DNA of 64,000 nucleotides from a virus (IMGVR_UViG_3300045988_082442:128001-192000); one strand, 5' to 3'; numbered from the stretch's first letter, positions 1 to 42,771 are shown. Notes: generated by a model not told the origin, from the sequence alone. Numbers and translations are program-made.

Positions 1-73
1 TAAAAATGTTCAGTAAGATGTTAATAAGAATGTAAGTAAGTTTTCTGGTATCTTGATAAAAACCAGAATATAT

Positions 74-146
74 CTCCTTATGGTGTAATAGGCAAACACG
101 CTACTGAGTGGTGGTAGAATTATAGGTTCGAGCCCTGTTGGGGAGG
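74..146 (+). tRNA. tRNA-like gene with non-canonical anticodon loop (GUG/His if read at standard positions)
   Basis: Hand fold: acceptor CTCCTTA/TGGGGAG (two G-U), D arm GTGT-AATAGGCAA-ACAC, T arm ATAGG-TTCGAGC-CCTGT, anticodon stem CTACT/GGTAG. The loop GAGTGGT lacks U33. Confidence 0.5.
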
Positions 147-272
147 ATAAATTCTATATATAGAATAATGTGTTACGCAGTATCTGTATTATAAGGTGAC
201 AAGTACACAGGACGCTGTGGAGGGTTTCAATTCCTGGTAGTTGATTAGGTCTACAAAATACAGATATAATAT

Positions 273-344
273 CAGGTGGTAGTTGATAGGAAAACACTTC
301 TACTAATGTATGAAGAGATGCTGGTTCGAATCCAGCCCTCCTGA
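273..344 (+). tRNA. tRNA-like gene, degenerate (possible pseudo-tRNA)
   Basis: Canonical T arm GCTGG-TTCGAAT-CCAGC. Acceptor CAGGTGG/CCTCCTG has one T-T mismatch. D loop contains GG. Anticodon arm pairs only 3-4 bp (CTTC..GAAG) around an 11-nt loop. Confidence 0.35.
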
Positions 345-357
345 CCTTTTCAAAAAT

Positions 358-443
358 GCAAGTATATCTCAACGGCAGAGCAGCCTCCAGTTGGGGGTGA
401 AAAGTAGCATACGATTGTGTAGGTTCGAATCCTACTACTTGCA
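358..443 (+). tRNA. class II (long variable arm) tRNA-like gene, anticodon arm non-canonical
   Basis: Perfect acceptor GCAAGTA/TACTTGC, T arm GTAGG-TTCGAAT-CCTAC, D loop AACGGCA, variable-arm hairpin GTA-GCA-TAC. The anticodon region GCCTCCAGTTGGGGGT folds as 6 bp with a 4-nt loop rather than 5 bp with a 7-nt loop. No encoded CCA. Confidence 0.5.
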
Positions 444-446
444 ACC

Positions 447-489
447 TAAAAATGACACAGATGTAAAAGAATATATTCATAGGTTATAT
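447..489 (+). ncRNA. candidate tRNA-flanked guide RNA: orphan 3' half of the CRISPR repeat (447-469) plus a 20-nt unique sequence (470-489)
   Basis: TAAAAATGACACAGATGTAAAAG matches the last ~21 nt of the array repeats. It starts 4 nt after the tRNA-like gene ending at 443. The 20 nt AATATATTCATAGGTTATAT that follow abut the 5' end of tRNA-Trp at 490. Confidence 0.45.
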
Positions 490-564
490 AGGAGCTTGGT
501 GTCAATGGTAGCACGACAGTCTCCAAAACTGTGAGTGAGAGTTCAAATCTTTCAGCTCCTGCCA
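490..564 (+). tRNA. tRNA-Trp (anticodon CCA), CCA end encoded
   Basis: Acceptor AGGAGCT/AGCTCCT, D arm GTGT-CAATGGTA-GCAC, anticodon stem ACAGT/ACTGT with loop CTCCAAA, T arm GAGAG-TTCAAAT-CTTTC, discriminator G then CCA. Confidence 0.9.
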
Positions 565-778: not shown

Positions 779-864
779 GGGTAGTTGGGTGAGTGGCTAA
801 AACCATCAGACTGTAAATCTGACCTCATTTGAGTTCCCTAGTTCGAATCTAGGACTACCCACCA
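779..864 (+). tRNA. tRNA-Tyr (anticodon GTA), class II, CCA end encoded
   Basis: Acceptor GGGTAGT/ACTACCC, anticodon stem TCAGA/TCTGA with loop CTGTAAA, variable-arm hairpin CTC-ATTT-GAG, T arm CCTAG-TTCGAAT-CTAGG, A then CCA. Confidence 0.9.
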
Positions 865-919: not shown

Positions 920-1144
920 TTTTTATAGCTATATGAAATAATACAGGTGTAAAAGTGTTCTAACTGTTTTAGAGTATAATCGTTTGTTTTACAGATATAT
1001 GAAATAACACAGGTGTAAAAGCTAGACTGTAAATCTGGTCTCATTTGAGTTACTTTGTAGTTATATGAAATAGCACAGATGTAAAATTGGATAATATGTT
1101 CTGAATTGTTTTATAGCTATACAGAAATGACATGGATGTAAGAG
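920..1144 (+). CRISPR. CRISPR array 1: four 36-37-nt repeats, three spacers (30, 30, 20 nt)
   Basis: Repeats at 920-955, 986-1021, 1052-1087 and 1108-1144, with a 66-nt period for the first three. Consensus is GTTTTATAGCTATATGAAATAACACAGGTGTAAAAG. Spacers are unique. The array is 57 nt upstream of the RuvC nuclease gene on the same strand. Confidence 0.8.
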
Positions 1145-1201: not shown

Positions 1202-3007
1202 ATGAAAAGAAAAGAGTTAAACGAAGGAGTTCACTGTGTAGAATATGCTTTAATGCACATACCAGATGAATATAAGGAATTGTTAGAAAGACAATATAAT
1301 TATATGGAAGATTTCAAGAATGGCTTTATTAGTTATATGTGGAGATATATTTCAAAGCAACGAAAGGAAAACGAAGAATTTGATAAAGCCATGGCTGAAG
1401 TTAGATACTTAAATACAAAGGAAGGAAGAATTATAAAGAAGGATGAACGCTCTAATAGACTAAGTAAAGCATATACAACAATAGGTAATTTTGTAAAAGA
1501 AACAAAGTTATTAGATTCTGGAAGTAGACGAAAAGAATACTACAGTACAGTAAAAAATGTTTATTATGCTTGGATACCAGATGATAGTAGGTCTTATGCA
1601 ATAGATGATGTTTTATCAGCATTTGAAGTATTCTTCTTTGATAGGGGTAAAGCAGTATTCCAAAAGAAATATGGTCATACAAAAATATTACAATTTAAAC
1701 CAGCATACAGTAGAATGAAGAGTACTGGTGAAATCAATACAATAGTACAAACACCTAGCAGAGTTGTATTTGAAAATGGAAATCCTTATTTTGAAATGTG
1801 GGATTTAAGAGATTTAAAAGATATACCAGAAGAAGAATGTCAAAAAGGTAAAAGACATAGTAAGATAAGATTTAGAATGTATTGTAATGATAAAGATGAG
1901 TTACAAAGTTATATAAAAACAAACCCATACATAGGTGGAACTAAGTTATTAAGATACTGGAAGAAGGGAAAATGGAGATATAGAGTTCAATTAAACTTTG
2001 AAGCAATATCACCAGCAGTAAAACAAATGAGCAACGAAGAGCATATAATGGGAATAGACTTAGGTACAGAAACAATAGCTTGGGTAAGAGATGATGGAGA
2101 ACAAGCAATATGGGAGTTATCACCAGATACACCAAGGGTAACAGAAGAAATAAAGGAAATAGATGTATATTTAGATAATTCAAGAAGGGCTATGAATCCA
2201 GAATTATTTAGGGAAGATGGTACTAGAATAAGTAATAGGGAAGCTAGGGAATTAGGATTAGAAGAAAAGCATTCAAAAAGATATATAAAAGCAGCAGCAA
2301 GAAGAAAAGAATGTTTTAGATATTTAGGAGAAAAAAGAAAACTAAATAACAGAATCCTAGCTAAAAAGTTATTTGAATTAGGTAATGAGTTTCATATAGA
2401 AAATAATAAGGTTTCATCTTGGATGTTAAAAAGATGTCACATGGCTCTTAAAACAGCAATGAAATATGCTTCTGGAGCAAGAGCAAGTGATTATGGGAAA
2501 GTTGTAGCAGATAGAGCCCCAGGAATGATAGATGCAAGATTATCTCAATTAGCAGGACAAAAAGGACTTTCATACCATAAAATTGAGAAGATAGAAGGTT
2601 TTAAATGCACAGAATATAATCATTTTACGGATAAGAATGATTTATTCCAATATCTAAATGACAGAATTGTAGTATTAGATGTTGACAGTGTAAATGATGT
2701 CTATAAAGAGTTTATTACTGATTTTGGTGATACAATTACTGATTTAAAAATAGACGGAAAAGACATAATACTACAAAGAGATTTATATGCAGCAGCAAAA
2801 TTAGTTTATTGCACACCATATAAAGAAACTATTGTGAATAGTAAAGGTAGAAAGGTAGAAGTAACAAGATATAAATTTGATAGAGAAGGGTTTAGCAAAT
2901 TCTTTGTTGAGAAATTTTATCCAAAACATTTAGAGTATATAATGAATCTAAGGGCTGAGTTAGCTAATGGTAAGAAGCTAAGTGGTACTGTATTTGGTAA
3001 TATTTAA
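1202..3007 (+). CDS. TnpB-like RuvC nuclease; candidate miniature type V (Cas12-like) CRISPR effector, 601 aa
   Basis: RuvC-I HIMGIDLGTE (about nt 2050), RuvC-II FHIENNKV (about nt 2399) and RuvC-III ILQRDLYAAAKL (about nt 2780) occur in TnpB/Cas12 order. About 280 aa precede RuvC-I. The zinc-ribbon cysteines are absent. RBS GGGGG. A CRISPR array is adjacent. Confidence 0.75.
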   Translation: MKRKELNEGVHCVEYALMHIPDEYKELLERQYNYMEDFKNGFISYMWRYISKQRKENEEFDKAMAEVRYLNTKEGRIIKKDERSNRLSKAYTTIGNFVKETKLLDSGSRRKEYYSTVKNVYYAWIPDDSRSYAIDDVLSAFEVFFFDRGKAVFQKKYGHTKILQFKPAYSRMKSTGEINTIVQTPSRVVFENGNPYFEMWDLRDLKDIPEEECQKGKRHSKIRFRMYCNDKDELQSYIKTNPYIGGTKLLRYWKKGKWRYRVQLNFEAISPAVKQMSNEEHIMGIDLGTETIAWVRDDGEQAIWELSPDTPRVTEEIKEIDVYLDNSRRAMNPELFREDGTRISNREARELGLEEKHSKRYIKAAARRKECFRYLGEKRKLNNRILAKKLFELGNEFHIENNKVSSWMLKRCHMALKTAMKYASGARASDYGKVVADRAPGMIDARLSQLAGQKGLSYHKIEKIEGFKCTEYNHFTDKNDLFQYLNDRIVVLDVDSVNDVYKEFITDFGDTITDLKIDGKDIILQRDLYAAAKLVYCTPYKETIVNSKGRKVEVTRYKFDREGFSKFFVEKFYPKHLEYIMNLRAELANGKKLSGTVFGNI

Positions 3008-3298: not shown

Positions 3299-3338
3299 TA
3301 TTATAATAAGATGTTAATATATAGGAGGGGTGATTATA

Positions 3339-4325: not shown

Positions 4326-4703
4326 ATGATAATAGAAACAACATTTAATGATAATGATTTCACACATATATTAGATGAATATTGGAGTAGGTTTAGATTT
4401 GTAAATTATTACTATGGACTAGATAGAATAGAAGACCCAGCAGTATATAGAGATGCAAGAATAGATATGGAAAGCTTAATTGAAAAAGCAGTGTATAATG
4501 ATTTAGACCAAGAAGAATCAAAAAGGTTTTTATTATATATTAAAACCAGCATATTGGAATTTATAAAGGATAACTATCGAGATGATTATATATATTTAAG
4601 TGATAATTTTAAAGTTGCAATTAAGAAGTCAGTAGAAGATAAAAATTATAATGGAGAAATAGTATATTATTTCTTAACTAATAATGTATATATAACTATG
4701 TAG
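4326..4703 (+). CDS. hypothetical protein
   Basis: ORF track; GGGGGG RBS upstream. Confidence 0.65.
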   Translation: MIIETTFNDNDFTHILDEYWSRFRFVNYYYGLDRIEDPAVYRDARIDMESLIEKAVYNDLDQEESKRFLLYIKTSILEFIKDNYRDDYIYLSDNFKVAIKKSVEDKNYNGEIVYYFLTNNVYITM

Positions 4704-4743
4704 ATGTTATACTTATTAGATAAATAATATTGGAGGTAGAAAA

Positions 4744-5916
4744 GTGAATTTATTAGATAGTGTAGAAATTCAGAAATTAGAAGAGGATATAAAAAGATAT
4801 GCAAAAGCGTACTACGAGGGAAAAGCTCAAATCTCTGACTATGAGTTCGACAAACTTACAGATAGATTAAGAGATTTAAAACCAGACTCAACTGTATTAA
4901 GAACACCGGGATGGGGATATGAACAAACTGGTACAAAAGTAAAACATAAATATCAAATAGTTAAAAGTTTGGATAAGTGCAGAACATTTGATGAAATTCC
5001 AGAAAGATTTACAAATAAATCAGTAGCATTATCACCAAAACTAGATGGTCTTACAGGTGTATTCTATTATAAAAATGGTAGACTTATAAAAGCAATAACA
5101 AGAGGAAATGGAACAGAAGGCAAGGATATTACAGATAAAGCAAGACTAATAGTAGGTAATGAAATATTAGATAAGAACTTTACAGGTGGTGTTAGAGGTG
5201 AACTTGAAATTTCTAATACTAACTGGGAAATAATAAAGAGCAAATACCCAGAAGCTAAGAATGCAAGGAACTTATGTGCAGGTTGGATAAATTCAAAAGA
5301 CTATAATCCAGATGAAATAAAAATGATAGATTTTATTACTTATAAGGTAACTGGACAAGAAAGAGAAGAAGGAAAAGAAGATATATTTTATGATTTATCA
5401 AAAGTAGATAATATTGGTGAGATATGCTTTAATAGCAATCCAACTAAGTTTAATGTTATAGACTGGCTATCATATAACTTTAAAAATACAATACCAAAGG
5501 TACAAGCAACATTAACAAGAGATGGGTTTCAAGAATTTATGCAAAAGGTATTTACTGAATTTAAAACAAGTGATAGATATAATTTAGATTACGAACTAGA
5601 TGGTATTGTTATATCTGATATAGATGTAATATATCATAGAGCAGAAAATTCATATATTTATGATGAGTGTGCCTTTAAATTTGCAGCTGAATCTGCTGAG
5701 GCTAAGGTTACAGGAATTACTTGGAATATGACAAGAACACAAAGATTAGTTCCCATTGTTCAGTTTGAACCTGTATTTTTATCTGGTGCTGTTTTACAAA
5801 ATGCTACTGGACACAATGCAAAGTTTATATTAGATAATGAAATAAAAATTGGTTCTACTATTGAGATTTGCAGAAGTAATGAAGTAATTCCTTATATAAA
5901 GAAGGTAGTTGATTAA
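4744..5916 (+). CDS. ligA: NAD-dependent DNA ligase, N-terminal fragment (Ia, adenylation and OB domains)
   Basis: LigA Ia-like YYEGKAQISDYEFDKL, adenylation motif I SPKLDGLTG, and ELDGIVISD. The fragment ends where an OB domain would end. GTG start after GGAGG. Confidence 0.8.
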   Translation: MNLLDSVEIQKLEEDIKRYAKAYYEGKAQISDYEFDKLTDRLRDLKPDSTVLRTPGWGYEQTGTKVKHKYQIVKSLDKCRTFDEIPERFTNKSVALSPKLDGLTGVFYYKNGRLIKAITRGNGTEGKDITDKARLIVGNEILDKNFTGGVRGELEISNTNWEIIKSKYPEAKNARNLCAGWINSKDYNPDEIKMIDFITYKVTGQEREEGKEDIFYDLSKVDNIGEICFNSNPTKFNVIDWLSYNFKNTIPKVQATLTRDGFQEFMQKVFTEFKTSDRYNLDYELDGIVISDIDVIYHRAENSYIYDECAFKFAAESAEAKVTGITWNMTRTQRLVPIVQFEPVFLSGAVLQNATGHNAKFILDNEIKIGSTIEICRSNEVIPYIKKVVD

Positions 5917-5917
5917 T

Positions 5918-6679
5918 ATGTATGGTTATATCTATTTAGTGCATGACAGTCTAAATAATAGACATTATATAGGACAACACAAATGGACAAAGTATGAATT
6001 ATTAGACGAAGATTACACAAGAGGGTCTGAAAAAGCATTTAGAGATTCCCATGGATTTGATTTATTTAAGATAGACCCAAATTATTTAGGTTCAGGAAAA
6101 CATTTACAAAATGCAATTAAAAAATATGGTAAGAATTATTTTTATATACAAGATATACTTGATATTGCAGAAACAAAACAGGAGTTGAATAAAAAAGAGA
6201 AAGAATGTATTAGACATTATAAATATGTATTAGGTTATAATCTATACAATATTAGTGAGGGTGGTGATGGAGGATATACTGGTAAAGATATTAGTGGTAA
6301 GAATAACCCAATGTATGGAAAACATCATACAGAAGAAACTAAACAGAAATTAAGAGAAATTATGAAATCTAAGGATTTTGAATATTTTAAAACAGACCCT
6401 AGATTTAGACATTATGGCAAAGATAATGGAATGTATGGTAAAAATCATACTGAAGAATCAAAGGAGAGAAACAGGAAAAAACATTTAGGAAAGAAAGTAT
6501 CTGATGAAACAAGAAATAAAATGAGAAAATCACATAACCCAAATAATATGCCCCCAAATCTACAAGGATATAGAGGAATGAATAATGGAATAATATATAC
6601 AAAAATACCACCAGATAAAATAGATAAATACTTGAGTGATGGTTGGAAGTTTGGAAGAATTAAAAAGGAGGATAAATAA
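5918..6679 (+). CDS. GIY-YIG homing endonuclease with NUMOD3-like repeats
   Basis: YGYIYLV..HYIGQH (GIY..YIG), YNISEGG, and two GK(N/D)NxMYGKxHTEE repeats. It sits between the two ligase fragments with overlapping stop and start codons. Confidence 0.8.
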   Translation: MYGYIYLVHDSLNNRHYIGQHKWTKYELLDEDYTRGSEKAFRDSHGFDLFKIDPNYLGSGKHLQNAIKKYGKNYFYIQDILDIAETKQELNKKEKECIRHYKYVLGYNLYNISEGGDGGYTGKDISGKNNPMYGKHHTEETKQKLREIMKSKDFEYFKTDPRFRHYGKDNGMYGKNHTEESKERNRKKHLGKKVSDETRNKMRKSHNPNNMPPNLQGYRGMNNGIIYTKIPPDKIDKYLSDGWKFGRIKKEDK

Positions 6680-7566
6680 TGAATAGATGTGTAAATTTAG
6701 AAGAGAGTGAATATTTACCTACACAATGCCCAGCCTGTGGACATAATTTGGAGTGGGTTGGTGTTGATTTAAAATGTGTAAACACAGAATGTCCACATAT
6801 AGCAGAGAGTGATTTGGAACAGTGGTGTACTATTGTAGGAGAAACAGATGGGTTAGCATGGGTAACAATGAAGCAATATTTAGATAAATTCAATATACAT
6901 AATACAGATGATTTATATAAGAATATAAATACAATGATAGCTACATTACAAGGTGGTAATGCTTCTATAACAGATAAAAAGATTGTAGAGTTTCTAAATA
7001 AGTTATATAAAGATATGATACCAGTAGAAAAAGCATTGATGGGATTAAATATACCAAGATTAAGTGAACAGACAGCAAAATTATTAAATAAAGAGAAAGA
7101 GTTAGTACATGATTTAATGACAATAGGTTCTCAATATACTACTGTAAAGGATAGAGATATGATTTCTATTCCAGATACATTAAAGAATAAACTATTAGGA
7201 TTAGTTAAAGAAGCAACAACAGAATCTATATTAAGTAATTTAGGAAAGTTGAACACACTACATTATTTATATGAACAAGATACACCTAGAATTATATTCA
7301 ATGACAATACTGATGAAATTATAAAGGTTGCTGTTACTGGCTCATTAGAGAGTATGAAAAGAAGTGCTTTTGAGAAGTATATACAAAGTTATGGATATGA
7401 ATTATCTAGTAGTATTAAATCTTGTAAATATTTAATAACTAATAATCCGAACAGTGGTTCAAGCAAGAATAAAGATGCCCAAAAATATGGTGTTGAAATC
7501 ATAACTGAAAAAGAATTTTTAGATAAATTAGGTAAGGTAACTACTAAATCTAATACATTGTTTTAA
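6679..7566 (+). CDS. ligA: NAD-dependent DNA ligase, C-terminal fragment (Zn finger, HhH, BRCT)
   Basis: CPACGHNL..CVNTECPH zinc-finger motif. BRCT-like VAVTGSL...YLITNNPNSGSSKNKDAQKYGVEIITEKEF. The ATG overlaps the TAA of the endonuclease gene. Confidence 0.8.
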   Translation: MNRCVNLEESEYLPTQCPACGHNLEWVGVDLKCVNTECPHIAESDLEQWCTIVGETDGLAWVTMKQYLDKFNIHNTDDLYKNINTMIATLQGGNASITDKKIVEFLNKLYKDMIPVEKALMGLNIPRLSEQTAKLLNKEKELVHDLMTIGSQYTTVKDRDMISIPDTLKNKLLGLVKEATTESILSNLGKLNTLHYLYEQDTPRIIFNDNTDEIIKVAVTGSLESMKRSAFEKYIQSYGYELSSSIKSCKYLITNNPNSGSSKNKDAQKYGVEIITEKEFLDKLGKVTTKSNTLF

Positions 7567-17243: not shown

Positions 17244-17665
17244 ATCCTATAGCTATATAAAATGACACAGATGTGAAAGTATTGCAACATTAAAATACCC
17301 TATTTTTGGGGTTTTATGGCTATATAAAATAACACAGATGTGAAAGAGGGATTTTGTTTTGTTAGCATTTATTTCTGTTTTATAGCTATATAAAATGACA
17401 CAGATGTGAAAGTCTGGAACAAATCTTGAAAAGTCCAGCTTTGTTTTATGGCTATATAAAATAACACAGGTGTGAAATAATTCAAAGTATTGTTCAAATA
17501 GTTTCTGTGTTTTATAGTTATATAAAATGACACAGATGTGAAAGGAATACTAAAATAAAGTAGCAATTGAGCTAGTTCTATAGCTATATAAAATGACACA
17601 GATATGAAAGTTAAGCTCATGAATGATAGCAACAATAGTTTTATAGATATATAAGAAGCAGAAAG
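17244..17665 (+). CRISPR. CRISPR array 2: seven repeats (last one degenerate), six spacers of 27-31 nt
   Basis: Repeats at 17244, 17311, 17377, 17443, 17509, 17575 and 17638, with a 66-67-nt period. Consensus is GTTTTATAGCTATATAAAATGACACAGATGTGAAAG (36 nt). All spacers are unique. Confidence 0.9.
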
Positions 17666-17676
17666 GAGAAAATTAA

Positions 17677-18111
17677 ATGAAAGAAAGATTAATATGTGAT
17701 TTAAAGGAAGCAATGAAGAATAAAGATGTAATTGCTAAAAATACAATACAAAGTATTAGGGCTTCTATACTACAGTATGAAAAAGATAATCATACAGAAG
17801 CAACTAATAAACAAATAGAGGATATATTGGTTAAAGAAAGGAAGAAAAGAGTAGATGCATTAGAACAATTCCAAAAAGCAAATAGGGAAGATTTAATACA
17901 TCAAACAGAAATGGAAATACAAATAATAGAGGGATATTTACCAGAGCAAATGTCAGAAGAAGAAATAAGAGAAAGACTATCTGAAACAATATCTCAAATG
18001 AATGCTGATAAATCAATGTTTGGACAAATAATGAAAATGGCAAAAGAAGAATTTGGAAATACAGCAGATGGTAAGACACTTAGTACAATATTGAAAGAAT
18101 TATTAAACTAA
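17677..18111 (+). CDS. GatB/YqeY-domain protein
   Basis: End-to-end resemblance to YqeY: L..DLKEAMK.KD, ...ILVKERKKR..., IIEGYLP, GQIMK...G.ADGK. Confidence 0.7.
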   Translation: MKERLICDLKEAMKNKDVIAKNTIQSIRASILQYEKDNHTEATNKQIEDILVKERKKRVDALEQFQKANREDLIHQTEMEIQIIEGYLPEQMSEEEIRERLSETISQMNADKSMFGQIMKMAKEEFGNTADGKTLSTILKELLN

Positions 18112-30402: not shown

Positions 30403-30441
30403 ATGGCAAATTCAGTAGCATATTATGCTAAGATGTTGTAG
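30403..30441 (+). pseudogene. 12-codon remnant duplicating the 5' end of the fibre gene at 32107
   Basis: 30390-30427 equals 32094-32131 (38 bp, one mismatch), covering the RBS, ATG and first 8 codons (MANSVAYY versus MANPVAYY). Confidence 0.7.
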
Positions 30442-30457
30442 TAAGTAGGAGGAAGAG

Positions 30458-32064: not shown

Positions 32065-32106
32065 AGACATCAAGATAATAGATGTTATTATAAAGGAGGT
32101 AATCAA

Positions 32107-40854: not shown

Positions 40855-42771
40855 ATGGGGTTTAGAGATAGAATGCAAAACTTTATGGAAAGCACATTCA
40901 AAGTCAGAATAATACCTAAACAAACACCAAGAGAAGGAATGGCTATTACATCTGAAAAGAACTCTTTACCAAACCAATTAGATGAAGCTGTTGAATCTGG
41001 AAAAAGGATTGACCTATCTGGATTAAGAGATTTAATGTCATTAAAAACAGATAGAAATGAGCAATATAAAGCTTACGAAGAAATGGTTGCAGATGGACGT
41101 ATAGGTGCAGCTGTTGAGATGTATGCTAACGATACAGTACAACAATCTCCAGAGGGTAAAGTTATTTGGGTAGAAAGCGATAATGCTGATGTAGCATCCT
41201 ATGGAAATAAACTATTAGAAGATTTAGGTGTTGCACAAAATCTTTGGAGTTGGGCATACTGTTTATGGTTATATGGTGACGTGTATTTAGAGTTATTTGA
41301 AAATACTTCTACATTAGGAAATAAACCAACATTATTGACAGAACCAGTAAATCATAATGCTAATTTCCAAAAACAAGTTCCTATTGAAGGAGCATATCTT
41401 GAAAGATATGTGGAAAAGGTTCCAAACCCAGCAGATGTATATGACCTACAATTCAAAGGTAAGACATCTGGATTTGTTAAATCAAGAGAACCATTAACAC
41501 CAACATATAAAAATAGAATAAACACATATAATGTTACATCATCAACTGAAAAGATAGATATATTATCTCCTATGAAGTTTGTTCATATATGTTTATCACC
41601 TAATATTTCAAGATACCCAGAGAAATTTAGTATAGTACAAGAAACACCAGATAATAAGAATGTGCATACAACTGGTGGAGATGCAATAAATGAAAATTCA
41701 GTAGGTGGATCTACTTATACTGTATTAAGAGGACAATCAATGTTAGAGAATGTATATGGACCATATCAAGCATTGAAACTAAAAGAAGATAGTATATTAT
41801 TAGAAAGAATAACAAAAGCTTCCATTACAAGAATTATACAAATAGAGCTAGGTGATATGCCAGAAAGTCAAAAAGACAGGGTATTAAGGGATTTAAAGGA
41901 ACAAATAGAACAACAACTTCAAATGAATAAATTTACTGGTGATATAAATAGCAGAGCAAGTGCTAACCCATCAGAGAATATAATCTACACAACTACTAAA
42001 AATGGTAAGGGTGTAATTAATACAGTAAATATTGGTGGAGAAGCAGATTTAGGTAATATAGAAGATATTACACAATCTGAGAATAAACTATATGGTGCTT
42101 TACAAGCTAATAAAGCAGCTTTAGGTGCAGATATGGATGGTACTGGATTATCAAATGGTGGTTCATTAACAGAATTAAACTCAATATATGCTAGAAGAAT
42201 AGTTAGAGGGCAAACAGCACTAACATCTGGAATAACTACTTTAATAAATATATTTGCATTAAAAGAAGGACTTGCAGTTACTCATGTAAATAACTTTAGA
42301 GTTAGAATGGTTAAACCAGTAACATCAGAAGATACAAGAAGAGATGATTTATTATCTAATAAGATTAGAAATGTAAGTGATTTACTAAATCTATTAAATG
42401 ATAAAGATATAATTGACTCAGTATCAAGATTAAAGATTATAGCTAACTTAATGGTTAACTACCTATCTCAACAAGATATTGCAGATGTATTAAATGAAAT
42501 ACTTGAATCTCAAGAAGCAGAAGTTGAAGATACAGATAAGGGAGATGGTGATGATACATTTGATGATATTACAACACATGGGGGTTCTGGAAGTAGTTTA
42601 AGAGAACCACCATCAGGAGGGGAAGCACCTAGTAAACCAAATAGCCCAGATTTAGATACTGAAACAGATACTGAAACAGAACCTAATACGCCAGATTTAG
42701 AATCTAATGTAGGAGCAGGTTCTACTGATGATATAGACTTATCAGAAATAGAAGGTAAAGATTTATTATAG
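40855..42771 (+). CDS. possible portal protein
   Basis: 638 aa. YKAYEEMVADGRIGAAVEMYANDT resembles a portal N-terminal segment. Acidic, low-complexity C-terminus. By eye only. Confidence 0.4.
   Translation: MGFRDRMQNFMESTFKVRIIPKQTPREGMAITSEKNSLPNQLDEAVESGKRIDLSGLRDLMSLKTDRNEQYKAYEEMVADGRIGAAVEMYANDTVQQSPEGKVIWVESDNADVASYGNKLLEDLGVAQNLWSWAYCLWLYGDVYLELFENTSTLGNKPTLLTEPVNHNANFQKQVPIEGAYLERYVEKVPNPADVYDLQFKGKTSGFVKSREPLTPTYKNRINTYNVTSSTEKIDILSPMKFVHICLSPNISRYPEKFSIVQETPDNKNVHTTGGDAINENSVGGSTYTVLRGQSMLENVYGPYQALKLKEDSILLERITKASITRIIQIELGDMPESQKDRVLRDLKEQIEQQLQMNKFTGDINSRASANPSENIIYTTTKNGKGVINTVNIGGEADLGNIEDITQSENKLYGALQANKAALGADMDGTGLSNGGSLTELNSIYARRIVRGQTALTSGITTLINIFALKEGLAVTHVNNFRVRMVKPVTSEDTRRDDLLSNKIRNVSDLLNLLNDKDIIDSVSRLKIIANLMVNYLSQQDIADVLNEILESQEAEVEDTDKGDGDDTFDDITTHGGSGSSLREPPSGGEAPSKPNSPDLDTETDTETEPNTPDLESNVGAGSTDDIDLSEIEGKDLL

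What the first reader, a model, noticed from the sequence alone, without database searches (positions are those of the whole stretch)
74..443. Three tRNA-like genes with intact acceptor, D and T arms but aberrant anticodon arms
- All three keep canonical T loops (TTCGAGC or TTCGAAT) and GG-containing D loops.
- None has a standard 5-bp stem with a 7-nt loop and U33. The loops are GAGTGGT, 3-4 bp with an 11-nt loop, and 6 bp with a 4-nt loop.
- The two neighbouring tRNAs (Trp, Tyr) are textbook, so this is not an artefact of folding by hand.

Possible explanations:
- pseudo-tRNAs;
- anticodon-loop variants that resist host anticodon nucleases, as established for some phage tRNAs;
- decoys;
- pure RNase P/Z processing scaffolds for the interleaved guide-like RNAs.

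The same genome carries a tRNA-repair gene set (10.5-15.9 kb). The first gene reads GUG (His) at positions 34-36 but has no encoded G-1, while a Thg1-like enzyme is encoded nearby. That link is speculative.
Basis: partly seen in the sequence, partly recalled or inferred. Interest (0 to 1): 0.65.

Follow-up and report, generated by a model that had tools for sequence, protein, structure and literature searches.

The report
Anticodon-less tRNA look-alikes in a phage
Three phage genes fold like tRNAs but carry a sealed hairpin where the anticodon loop should be, and related phages keep the same oddity, so they are conserved non-decoding tRNA mimics, not broken or disguised tRNAs.

Summary
Window 74-146 (t1), 273-344 (t2) and 358-443 (t3) score as tRNA (38-46 bits) with intact acceptor, D and T arms. 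None has a normal anticodon arm. t1 is 6 bp + 5 nt, or 5 bp + 7 nt with A33. t2 is a bulged 7-bp stem + UAAU. t3 is 6 bp + AGUU.

Each belongs to a family found in 4-7 related phage genomes. For t2 and t3, compensatory changes keep every helix, including the sealed arm. The apparent anticodons are not conserved (t1 family: GUG, GCU, CUU, GGU, CAG) and do not fit the identity elements. All true tRNAs nearby encode CCA; only 5 of 21 look-alikes do.

So they are neither decaying pseudogenes nor nuclease-resistant decoders. The His/Thg1 link fails: a relative has a canonical tRNA-His with G-1/C73 and also the Thg1-like gene.

The families also occur in relatives without CRISPR arrays, so they are not CRISPR-specific.

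The function is unresolved. My best guess (0.35) is RNase P/Z-processed punctuation modules in a dense small-RNA island. A near-equal rival (0.3) is a stable tRNA mimic that acts in trans.

The parts
74..146 (+). t1: tRNA-shaped RNA. The anticodon arm is 6 bp + 5-nt loop AGUGG, or formally 5 bp + GAGUGGU with A33. Discriminator G146, U at -1, no encoded CCA.
   Evidence: Family members sharing the D arm GGUGUA..CAC are in L008, L020, L021, L022 and L023.
273..344 (+). t2: tRNA-shaped RNA. The anticodon arm is a 7-bp stem with U311 bulged and a UAAU tetraloop (304-307). There is one U.U mismatch in the acceptor stem. The 3' trailer is CCU.
   Evidence: Orthologues are in L008, L015, L017, L021, L022 and L023.
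358..443 (+). t3: tRNA-shaped RNA. The anticodon arm is a 6-bp stem (383-388/393-398) with an AGUU tetraloop. It has a conserved 20-nt variable region (399-418), discriminator A443 and no CCA.
   Evidence: Orthologues are in L015, L020 and L022.
188..262 (+). ncA: conserved small non-coding RNA between t1 and t2, with core GGUGACAAGUA...GGGUUUCAAUUCC...GAUUAG.
   Evidence: 92% identical to L015 101-163. Also present in L008, L020 and L021. By eye, two hairpins in L021 appear to carry compensatory changes; the formal consensus fold of three copies was weak.
447..489 (+). Solitary 3' half of the CRISPR repeat (447-469) plus a 20-nt spacer-like stretch (470-489). It sits exactly between the t3 trailer and the 5' end of tRNA-Trp.
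   Evidence: p = 0.0005 against shuffles. The counterpart after t3 in L015 is not significant.
490..564 (+). Canonical tRNA-Trp(CCA) with encoded CCA. Used as an internal control.
779..864 (+). Canonical tRNA-Tyr(GUA) with encoded CCA. Used as an internal control.
   Evidence: It is 98.9% identical to L015 654-743.
921..1144 (+). CRISPR array 1 (context): four 35-36-nt repeats at a 66-nt period, downstream of a conserved leader (866-920).
1202..3007 (+). Compact Cas12-type effector gene, 601 aa (context).
   Evidence: PHROG 506, with GIDLG read by eye as a RuvC-type motif. Weak TnpB match. Fold closest to Cas12m2 and Cas12f.

Best explanation
What they are (shown). t1, t2 and t3 are members of three conserved families of tRNA-derived RNAs. 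Each keeps the whole tRNA body: acceptor stem, D arm, T arm, elbow nucleotides, and an anticodon-arm helix of about normal length. In each, the decoding loop has been replaced by a sealed 6-7-bp stem with a 4-5-nt loop. They cannot read codons.

How they most likely work (inferred). They sit in a densely packed small-RNA island that is probably transcribed as one precursor with the true tRNAs and several conserved small RNAs. In the window these are ncA and a solitary crRNA-like unit; relatives also carry ncB, ncC and ncD. Host RNase P would cut at the 5' end of each look-alike; the same ATAT/ATAC leader precedes both true tRNAs and look-alikes. RNase Z would cut after the discriminator, because most look-alikes lack the encoded CCA that every true tRNA here has. 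Their excision would then set the ends of the neighbouring small RNAs. In this reading they act as punctuation, and sealing the anticodon keeps these extra tRNA bodies out of translation.
For: Structure under selection.
- t3 family, 4 genomes: 96.6% of 88 pair cells are paired and 8 pairs show compensatory change, 3 of them in the sealed 6-bp arm. Slid controls reach at most 54%.
- t2 family, 6 genomes: 91.2% of 136 cells are paired and 12 pairs are compensatory, including all 7 acceptor pairs.
- The sealed arm recurs in every family: loops of 3-5 nt in 6 of 6 t1, UAAU in 6 of 7 t2, and tetraloops in 4 of 4 t3 MFE folds (for L015 the MFE hairpin differs from the conserved register). True tRNAs give 7-nt loops.

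No decoding.
- The t1-family 'anticodons' are GUG, GCU, CUU, GGU and CAG.
- t1 has U-1/G73, whereas bacterial tRNA-His needs G-1/C73. t3 has A73, whereas tRNA-Asn needs G73 (PMC9976931).

Processing signals.
- U or C lies at -1, within an ATAT/ATAC leader, for 15 of the 19 tRNAs and look-alikes listed.
- CCA is encoded in 8 of the 8 true tRNAs tabulated, and in every further true tRNA whose 3' end I read. It is encoded in only 5 of 21 look-alikes.

Punctuation-like anatomy.
- In the window, a half-repeat plus 20 nt fills exactly the gap between t3 and tRNA-Trp.
- ncB abuts the 5' end of t2 in L008, L017 and L021.
- The last spacer of an L012 array ends at the 5' end of tRNA-Thr.

Precedents. 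[quoted passage not shown] MHV68 vtRNAs are not aminoacylated and are cotranscribed with miRNAs (PMC4337559).
Against: - RNase P and RNase Z do not need the anticodon arm. Yet the arm is always kept as a stable helix, and in t2 its sequence (CU[A/G]C-UAAU-GUAG) and the D arm are more conserved than the acceptor and T stems. The t3 variable region is also conserved. That suggests a partner reads the lower half of the molecule.
- t2 and t3 are only 13 nt apart in the window, with no RNA between them to release.
- True tRNAs could serve equally well as punctuation.
- The crRNA-like unit after t3 is not significantly conserved in L015.
- There are no expression or end-mapping data, and the single-precursor model is inferred.
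- Orthology within t1 rests on synteny and a shared D arm, not on overall identity.
Confidence: 0.35

Rival explanations
1. Trans-acting tRNA mimics. The mature look-alike is itself the product: a nuclease-proof tRNA body with no single-stranded anticodon loop. It would engage a protein that recognises tRNA shape, acting as a decoy or sponge for a host tRNA-targeting defence, or as a cofactor or regulator for phage proteins. Candidate phage partners are the flanking RNA-repair enzymes and the YqeY/GatB-tail-like tRNA-binding protein. The hairpin at the anticodon end may be a displayed recognition element.
For: - Parts irrelevant to RNase P/Z are conserved: the t2 anticodon hairpin and D arm, the t3 variable region, and the length of the arm.
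- The families are more constant across the clade than the set of true tRNAs.
- The island lies among RNA-repair genes: RlaP, a Thg1-like protein and a Pnkp-Rnl fusion downstream, and in relatives a metallophosphatase upstream whose distant homologues carry an RlaP domain.
- A YqeY-domain protein is encoded at 17677-18111, and next to the Cas12 gene in L014 and L019.
- RNA-repair systems with tRNA-like partner RNAs are known (Ro/Y RNA; PMC7824862).
Against: - No partner has been identified.
- Known anticodon nucleases read the anticodon loop, and these loops resemble no natural anticodon loop, so a decoy for such nucleases is unlikely.
- The loop sequences of t1 and t3 vary freely.
- No TROVE/Ro gene was found among the 29 window ORFs scanned.
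Confidence: 0.3
2. Decoding tRNAs whose anticodon loops have been altered to escape host anticodon nucleases. Examples would be A33 in a tRNA-His(GUG) or tRNA-Asn(GUU) escaping a colicin E5-like enzyme.
For: - t1 can formally be drawn as 5 bp + 7 nt with GUG at 34-36 and A33.
- L015 t3 can be drawn with a CUGUUAG loop.
- Loop mutations in phage tRNAs at nuclease sites have been proposed (PMC10264068).
- The phage carries a tRNA-repair module.
Against: - The t2 and t3 arms are 18 and 16 nt. Covariation supports the tetraloop register.
- L022 t3 cannot pair at all in the 7-nt-loop register (my reading of the sequence).
- The five t1-family members with a 17-nt arm read five different triplets, all with a purine at 33.
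- The identity elements do not fit: U-1/G73 for 'His', A73 for 'Asn', and no long arm for the 'Ser' of L008.
- Most lack the CCA that every true tRNA here encodes.
Confidence: 0.05
3. Decaying tRNA pseudogenes with no function.
For: - Some look-alikes in relatives do appear degraded. L008 8661-8738 has a 3-bp T stem and a 12-nt loop, and neither tool calls it.
- Scores are lower than for true tRNAs.
Against: - Every helix in t2 and t3 is kept by compensatory substitution across 4-6 genomes whose neighbouring Cas12 proteins, where present, are only 49-55% identical.
- The sealed arm is itself maintained.
- Tertiary nucleotides (U8, A14, G18G19 and the T loop) are intact.
Confidence: 0.07
4. Dedicated parts of the phage CRISPR-Cas12 RNA machinery: a tracrRNA-like scaffold, or a handle fused to guides.
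For: - In the window they lie just upstream of an array and a compact Cas12 gene.
- t3 is followed by a half-repeat plus a 20-nt unit.
- A sealed-arm look-alike follows an array in L012.
- CRISPR arrays are interleaved with tRNA genes in L008, L012 and L014.
Against: - The t1, t2 and t3 families occur in L020-L023, whose islands have no arrays; no Cas12-sized gene was called in L020-L022.
- No complementarity to the repeat was found above shuffled background.
- The closest folds include Cas12m, whose solved complexes contain crRNA only.
Confidence: 0.05

Closest known systems
Phage-encoded tRNAs, including variants proposed to evade anticodon nucleases (van den Berg et al. 2023, PMC10264068)
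   Same: They are encoded in a phage tRNA cluster, have a full cloverleaf body with a canonical T loop and a D loop containing GG, and sit in a genome with a tRNA-repair module.
   Different: As I understand it, the proposed variants keep a 7-nt loop and a usable anticodon with point changes at the cleavage or recognition site; I did not check the loop geometry in the paper. Here the loop is closed to 4-5 nt, the arm is 16-18 nt long, the triplet is not conserved among family members, and identity elements and encoded CCA are missing.
MHV68 vtRNAs in TMERs (tRNA-miRNA-encoded RNAs; PMC4337559)
   Same: They are virus-encoded tRNA-like RNAs that are not aminoacylated, lie in a cluster, and are cotranscribed with other small RNAs. 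The vtRNA itself also has a function.
   Different: That is a eukaryotic herpesvirus whose tRNA-like part also carries the Pol III promoter. Here the host is bacterial, no promoter role is expected, and neither processing nor lack of charging has been shown.
Haloferax t-elements and engineered tRNA-flanked guide RNAs (icrRNA, PMC4326828; polycistronic tRNA-gRNA arrays, from my own knowledge)
   Same: A tRNA-like structure recognised by RNase P and tRNase Z defines the ends of a neighbouring RNA. The window's layout, t3, then a half-repeat plus 20 nt, then tRNA-Trp, has the same design as an engineered tRNA-gRNA unit.
   Different: As I recall, t-elements are minimal mimics. Here a complete L-shaped body with a conserved sealed anticodon arm is kept. 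The families also exist without any CRISPR, and cleavage has not been tested.
Phage T4 stable RNAs C and D (species 1 and 2) in the tRNA gene cluster (my own knowledge, not verified here)
   Same: They are small stable non-tRNA RNAs encoded among phage tRNA genes, matured with them, and of unknown function.
   Different: As I recall, the T4 RNAs are larger and only partly tRNA-like. I found no sequence relationship: no similar DNA in 50,697 GenBank phage records apart from tRNA-Tyr.
Y RNA / YrlA tRNA-like modules of Ro-RtcB RNA-repair operons (mentioned in PMC7824862)
   Same: They are tRNA-mimicking non-coding RNAs genetically linked to RNA-repair enzymes, also in some large phages.
   Different: In YrlA the 5' and 3' ends form a Ro-binding stem and the tRNA-like part is internal (my own knowledge). 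Here the ends form a normal acceptor stem. There is no Rfam Y RNA match and no TROVE protein among the ORFs scanned.

Membership tests
Decoding (elongator) tRNA | Cloverleaf with a 7-bp acceptor stem, a D arm with G18G19, a T arm with a UUCRANY loop, and U8/A14 | tested here: met
   All three score 38-46 bits on RF00005, and the helices pair 6-7/7 and 5/5.
Decoding (elongator) tRNA | 5-bp anticodon stem with a 7-nt loop, U33 and a purine at 37 | tested here: not met
   t1 has A33 and a pairable 32-38. t2 is a bulged 7-bp stem + UAAU. t3 is 6 bp + AGUU. Covariation supports the sealed registers.
Decoding (elongator) tRNA | Anticodon conserved among orthologues and matched by identity elements (bacterial His: G-1, C73; Asn: G73; Ser: long variable arm) | tested here: not met
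   The t1 family reads GUG, GCU, CUU, GGU and CAG. t1 has U-1/G73 and t3 has A73. The identity rules are from PMC9976931.
Decoding (elongator) tRNA | 3' CCA end encoded, as in the co-resident tRNAs of this phage group | tested here: not met
   CCA is encoded in 8 of the 8 true tRNAs tabulated and in every further true tRNA 3' end I read. It is encoded in 5 of 21 look-alikes and in none of the window's three: their trailers are AUA, CCU and ACC.
Decoding (elongator) tRNA | Aminoacylated and used on the ribosome | not testable with these tools
   Needs acid gels or periodate tRNA sequencing of infected cells.
Anticodon-nuclease-evading phage tRNA | Functional anticodon loop that differs from the host isoacceptor at the nuclease cleavage or recognition positions | tested here: not met
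   No functional 7-nt loop exists in t2 or t3. The t1 triplet is not conserved. The host tRNAs are unknown, so no host comparison was possible.
tRNA pseudogene | Neutral decay: helices break, there is no compensatory change, and distribution is patchy | tested here: not met
   91-97% of pair cells are paired, with 8-12 compensatory pairs per family, against at most 54% in slid controls. By my reading, t1 is present in 6, t2 in 7 and t3 in 4 genomes.
tRNA-like processing element (t-element, vtRNA, mascRNA type) | Acceptor-T minihelix plus elbow sufficient for RNase P and RNase Z | tested here: met
   The leader motif is shared with the true tRNAs.
tRNA-like processing element (t-element, vtRNA, mascRNA type) | Boundary coincides with the end of another functional RNA | tested here: inconclusive
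   This holds for the window's solitary half-repeat unit and for ncB-t2 in three relatives. It does not hold for t2-t3, which are 13 nt apart, and the L015 counterpart of the crRNA-like unit is not significant.
tRNA-like processing element (t-element, vtRNA, mascRNA type) | Actually cleaved by RNase P and RNase Z | not testable with these tools
   Needs end mapping or in vitro cleavage.
tracrRNA or guide scaffold of the adjacent Cas12 system | Anti-repeat complementarity and co-occurrence with the cas gene | tested here: not met
   No duplex with the repeat above shuffled background. The families are present in the islands of L020-L023, which have no arrays; no Cas12-sized gene was called in L020-L022.
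Y RNA / YrlA | Ro-binding terminal stem and a linked TROVE (Ro) protein gene | tested here: not met
   No Rfam match. No TROVE domain in the 29 window ORFs scanned.

The most novel reading that the evidence does not exclude
A clade of large, AT-rich phages maintains several families of 'anticodon-less tRNAs'. These would be complete tRNA bodies used as nuclease-proof scaffolds that display a small hairpin instead of an anticodon. The mature RNAs would act in trans, for example by occupying a host tRNA-targeting defence protein, or by partnering the phage's own tRNA-binding or RNA-repair proteins (YqeY-like, RlaP, Thg1-like, Pnkp-Rnl). This would be an RNA-level counter-defence or regulatory layer not yet described for phages.
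Probability: 0.3. Interest if true: 0.8.

Novelty: new variant of a known kind. Interest (0 to 1): 0.62.

Why it matters
Phage tRNA clusters are usually read as sets of decoders. Calls with odd loops are discarded as pseudogenes or flagged as 'undetermined'. Here such calls turn out to be conserved RNA families under selection for the tRNA shape but against decoding. They are more constant across the phage group than the true tRNAs.

If they are processing modules, this is a natural bacterial-virus counterpart of mitochondrial tRNA punctuation and of engineered tRNA-guide-RNA arrays. In the window it includes a crRNA-like unit framed by tRNA-type ends.

If they act in trans, they would be a new kind of phage RNA tool in the conflict over tRNAs, alongside repair enzymes and replacement tRNAs.

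Either way they give a concrete, testable entry point. The RNAs are short, the conserved positions are defined, and candidate protein partners are encoded nearby.

Tried and rejected
- Relatives in public phage collections. GenBank phages match only tRNA-Tyr. IMG/VR gave nothing by protein or by four DNA patterns; the seven 17-mer hits contain no tRNA. The one JGI metagenome hit is a chance match inside a coding region. Relatives came only through protein look-ups in Logan, ENA and NCBI assemblies and one GTDB MAG contig.
- tracrRNA or anti-repeat reading. Duplex energies with the repeat do not exceed shuffles.
- Antisense or kissing-loop targets of the three loops. No complementary sites in the 64-kb window above chance.
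- Self-target of the solitary 20-nt spacer-like stretch. None convincing.
- Suppressor tRNA reading of t2. The CUA inside the loop is CCA in L008, and ORFs read normally in code 11.
- Intron reading of t3. By my hand analysis, no excision restores a 5 bp + 7 nt arm.
- Thg1 link to t1. Rejected.
- First t1 alignment (A3). It included L015 990-1062, which by its D arm and pairwise identity belongs nearer to t3. Its 100% pairing therefore shows three well-formed cloverleaves rather than covariation in one lineage. I redefined the family by D arm and synteny. MAFFT could not align the arms of that set, so for t1 I report the per-sequence folds instead.
- Conservation of the crRNA-like unit after t3. 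I first took it as conserved in L015, but the test gave p of about 0.2-0.4, so the claim is limited to the window.
- Consensus fold of ncA. Weak.

Full report
**1. The observation**

The window opens with a 1.2-kb non-coding stretch on the + strand. ARAGORN finds five tRNA-type genes there: 73-147 'His(gtg)', 273-346 'Ile(aat)', 357-446 'tRNA-???' with a 2-nt anticodon, then Trp 490-564 and Tyr 779-864. Rfam's tRNA model scores them 38.3, 46.1, 38.7, 54.8 and 58.6 bits.

In the three low scorers the model leaves the anticodon loop unaligned. Trp and Tyr align from end to end.

T loops are UUCGAGC or UUCGAAU, D loops contain GG, U8 and A14 are present, and acceptor and T stems are intact. The anticodon arms are abnormal:
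- t1: loop GAGUGGU with A33. G106.U112 can add a sixth pair.
- t2: 4 bp + 11 nt. This refolds into a 7-bp stem with U311 bulged and a UAAU tetraloop.
- t3: 6 bp + AGUU, at -8.8 kcal/mol against at least +0.4 for a 7-nt-loop register. A 20-nt variable region follows.

**2. Context**

The region is part of a phage; a portal gene lies at 40855-42771. Downstream lie a CRISPR array (921-1144; 35-36-nt repeats at a 66-nt period) and a 601-aa protein. That protein matches a TnpB-type PHROG and folds most like Cas12m2 and Cas12f. A second array lies at about 17244-17610.

**3. Relatives**

Nothing similar exists in GenBank phages, IMG/VR or the JGI metagenome set.

The Cas12-like protein has only eight homologue clusters among 5.8 billion proteins. 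Their contigs (L008-L019) carry the same kind of island. A metallophosphatase gene lies upstream of the island in L008. Using it as a query led to L020, L021 and L022. A DNA pattern taken from t2 found L023, a 220-kb contig binned with an uncultured Bacilli MAG.

L020-L023 have the island but no CRISPR repeats, and no Cas12-sized gene was called in L020-L022.

**4. Three conserved families**

*t2* occurs in seven genomes. Across the six aligned, 91.2% of 136 pair cells are paired. Twelve pairs changed on both sides, including all seven acceptor pairs. Slid controls give at most 51%. The anticodon arm is always a 5-7-bp helix closed by UAAU (CAAU in L008). The arm and the D arm are more conserved than the acceptor and T stems.

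*t3* occurs in four genomes. Here 96.6% of 88 cells are paired and eight pairs are compensatory, three of them in the 6-bp anticodon stem. The loops are AGUU, UGUU, UUGA and UAUU. The 7-nt-loop register cannot pair in L022. The variable region (GAAAAGUAGCAU..GAUUGUG) is conserved.

*t1* is defined by synteny with ncA (window and L008) and by the D arm GGUGUA..CAC. It has six members. Five have a 17-nt arm with a purine at 33, G at 37 and a pairable 32-38. The sixth has 7 bp + UUAU. Their triplets at 34-36 are GUG, GCU, CUU, GGU and CAG. Overall identity within t1 is no higher than between unrelated tRNAs, so for t1 I rely on the recurrence of the pattern, not on formal covariation. The first alignment is discounted for that reason.

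A fourth sealed-arm family (x0) is present in L008, L012, L015 and L023. Some relatives also carry tRNA genes with large insertions in the anticodon arm.

**5. What this excludes**

*Decaying pseudogenes* do not keep every helix by compensatory change.

*Nuclease-resistant decoders* would keep a 7-nt loop and the anticodon, and the acceptor end would match the anticodon. Here:
- The t2 and t3 arms are 18 and 16 nt long.
- The triplet varies freely in t1.
- t1 has U-1/G73, whereas bacterial tRNA-His needs G-1/C73.
- t3 has A73, whereas tRNA-Asn needs G73.
- L008's 'Ser' lacks a long arm. The identity rules come from PMC9976931.

There is also a clean split at the 3' end. Every true tRNA whose 3' end I read in these islands encodes CCA; only 5 of 21 look-alikes do.

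The Thg1 idea fails. L008 has a canonical tRNA-His with encoded G-1 and C73 and also the Thg1-like orthologue, at 59% identity. The enzyme belongs to the repair module, as described for large phages (PMC7824862).

A tracrRNA or guide-scaffold role is not supported. There is no anti-repeat signal, and the families occur in islands without arrays.

**6. What they most likely do**

Shown: they are conserved, non-decoding tRNA bodies.

Inferred: how they act. The island is densely packed. Besides tRNAs it holds conserved small RNAs:
- ncA (window 188-262): 92% identical to L015. By eye, two hairpins in L021 appear to carry compensatory changes, but the formal consensus fold was weak.
- ncB, ncC and ncD in relatives, and tmRNA in three relatives.

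Tabulated tRNAs and look-alikes mostly share the leader ATAT or ATAC at -4 to -1, in 15 of 19. That is consistent with common RNase P processing. Lack of CCA points to RNase Z.

Several boundaries look like punctuation:
- The window's solitary half-repeat plus 20 nt fills the space between t3 and tRNA-Trp (p = 0.0005 for the half-repeat).
- ncB runs up to the 5' end of t2 in three relatives.
- An L012 array ends at the 5' end of tRNA-Thr.

Precedents exist in Haloferax t-elements and in the MHV68 vtRNAs. I therefore rank 'processing modules whose sealed arm keeps them out of translation' first, at 0.35.

The near-equal rival (0.3) is that the mature RNA is itself the effector. RNase P and RNase Z do not need the anticodon arm, yet its helix, the t2 tetraloop and the t3 variable region are conserved. 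t2 and t3 sit 13 nt apart with nothing to release between them. The island is embedded among RNA-repair genes. A YqeY/GatB-tail-type tRNA-binding protein is encoded at 17677-18111, and beside the Cas12 gene in L014 and L019. No partner could be identified with these tools.

**7. Novelty and score**

Non-decoding tRNA-like RNAs are known in a herpesvirus, in archaeal rRNA operons and, from memory, among T4 stable RNAs. The kind is therefore known. I found no description of conserved families of complete tRNA bodies with sealed anticodon arms across a phage clade.

I rate this a new variant of a known kind, with interest 0.62. The anatomy is solid and unusual. The mechanism is open but directly testable.

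Noticed in passing
window 921-1144 and 1202-3007: A CRISPR array (four 35-36-nt repeats, about 30-nt spacers) lies next to a 601-aa Cas12-type gene. The gene has only eight homologue clusters in 5.8 billion proteins and no PDB sequence match. Its predicted fold is closest to Cas12m2 and Cas12f, with a distant match to Cas12p. This is possibly an undescribed compact type V subtype carried by phages.
   Followed up: partly
window ~17244-17610 and 17677-18111: A second CRISPR array (six repeats, 66-nt period) is followed directly by a full-length YqeY/GatB-tail-like protein (Pfam E = 4e-35). From my own knowledge, this domain binds the tRNA elbow. A YqeY gene also sits beside the Cas12 gene in L014 and L019.
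   Followed up: partly
window 1022-1052 versus 808-842; L012 2770-2796 versus 2797-2872: One spacer of array 1 is about 86% identical to the phage's own tRNA-Tyr (anticodon and variable arm). In L012 the last spacer of an array repeats 16 nt of the D arm of the tRNA-Thr that follows. Either spacers are taken from the tRNA genes of related phages, or there are partial tRNA duplications at array ends.
   Followed up: partly
window 447-489: A solitary 3' half of the CRISPR repeat plus 20 nt sits framed by the t3 trailer and the 5' end of tRNA-Trp. This is the layout of an engineered tRNA-guide-RNA unit. No convincing target was found in the window.
   Followed up: yes
window 188-262; L015 95-169; L008 8906-8982; L021 7790-7860; L020 ~7830: ncA is a conserved small RNA of unknown family with an invariant GGGUUUCAAUUCC. 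By eye, two hairpins appear to carry compensatory changes. It is present with or without CRISPR. The consensus fold from three copies was weak.
   Followed up: partly
L008 9073-9252, L017 172-382, L021 8480-8682; L021 7600-7770 = L015 313-480; L015 1355-1500 = L022 11236-11381 = L023 4324-4440: Three further conserved non-coding RNAs (ncB, ncC, ncD) are interleaved with tRNAs in the relatives. ncB always abuts the 5' end of t2. None matches an Rfam family.
   Followed up: partly
window 4744-7566: The NAD-dependent DNA ligase is split. The adenylation and OB domains (4744-5916) and the Zn-finger and BRCT domains (6679-7566) are separated by a GIY-YIG/NUMOD3 homing endonuclease gene (5909-6679). 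L008 has the ligase as one 670-aa gene.
   Followed up: no
L012 3098-3219; L014 9258-9341; L021 7967-8042: These tRNA genes have large insertions or extended hairpins in the anticodon arm, for example about 50 nt in L012. The anticodon arm seems to be a variable 'cargo' site in this phage group.
   Followed up: no
window 72-73, 268-272, 353-357, 485-489, 774-778 and the equivalent sites in relatives: Most of the 19 tabulated tRNAs and look-alikes (15 of 19) are preceded by ATAT or ATAC at -4 to -1. This is a shared leader motif, possibly an RNase P preference or another processing signal.
   Followed up: partly
window 3308-3320, 4701-4713, 30430-30442, 32079-32091; L022 7825-7840 and 11578-11592: The motif AAGATGTTATAAT (like an extended -10 element) recurs 10-25 nt upstream of start codons and, in relatives, just upstream of some tRNA genes. 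It may be a phage-specific promoter. In the whole window the count was not clearly above chance (21 against 14.6 expected).
   Followed up: partly
L014 3855-4215, L019 3829-4181, L022 10203-10567: Relatives encode their own tmRNA, with tags ANEELVAA and ANNYAEKVAA, inside the same small-RNA islands.
   Followed up: no
L008 6948-8510 and its homologues: The gene that precedes the island in relatives is a 520-aa metallophosphatase. Its more distant homologues carry a fused RlaP (RNA-repair nucleotidyltransferase) domain. The island is therefore flanked by RNA-repair functions on both sides. The window starts just downstream of where this gene would lie.
   Followed up: no
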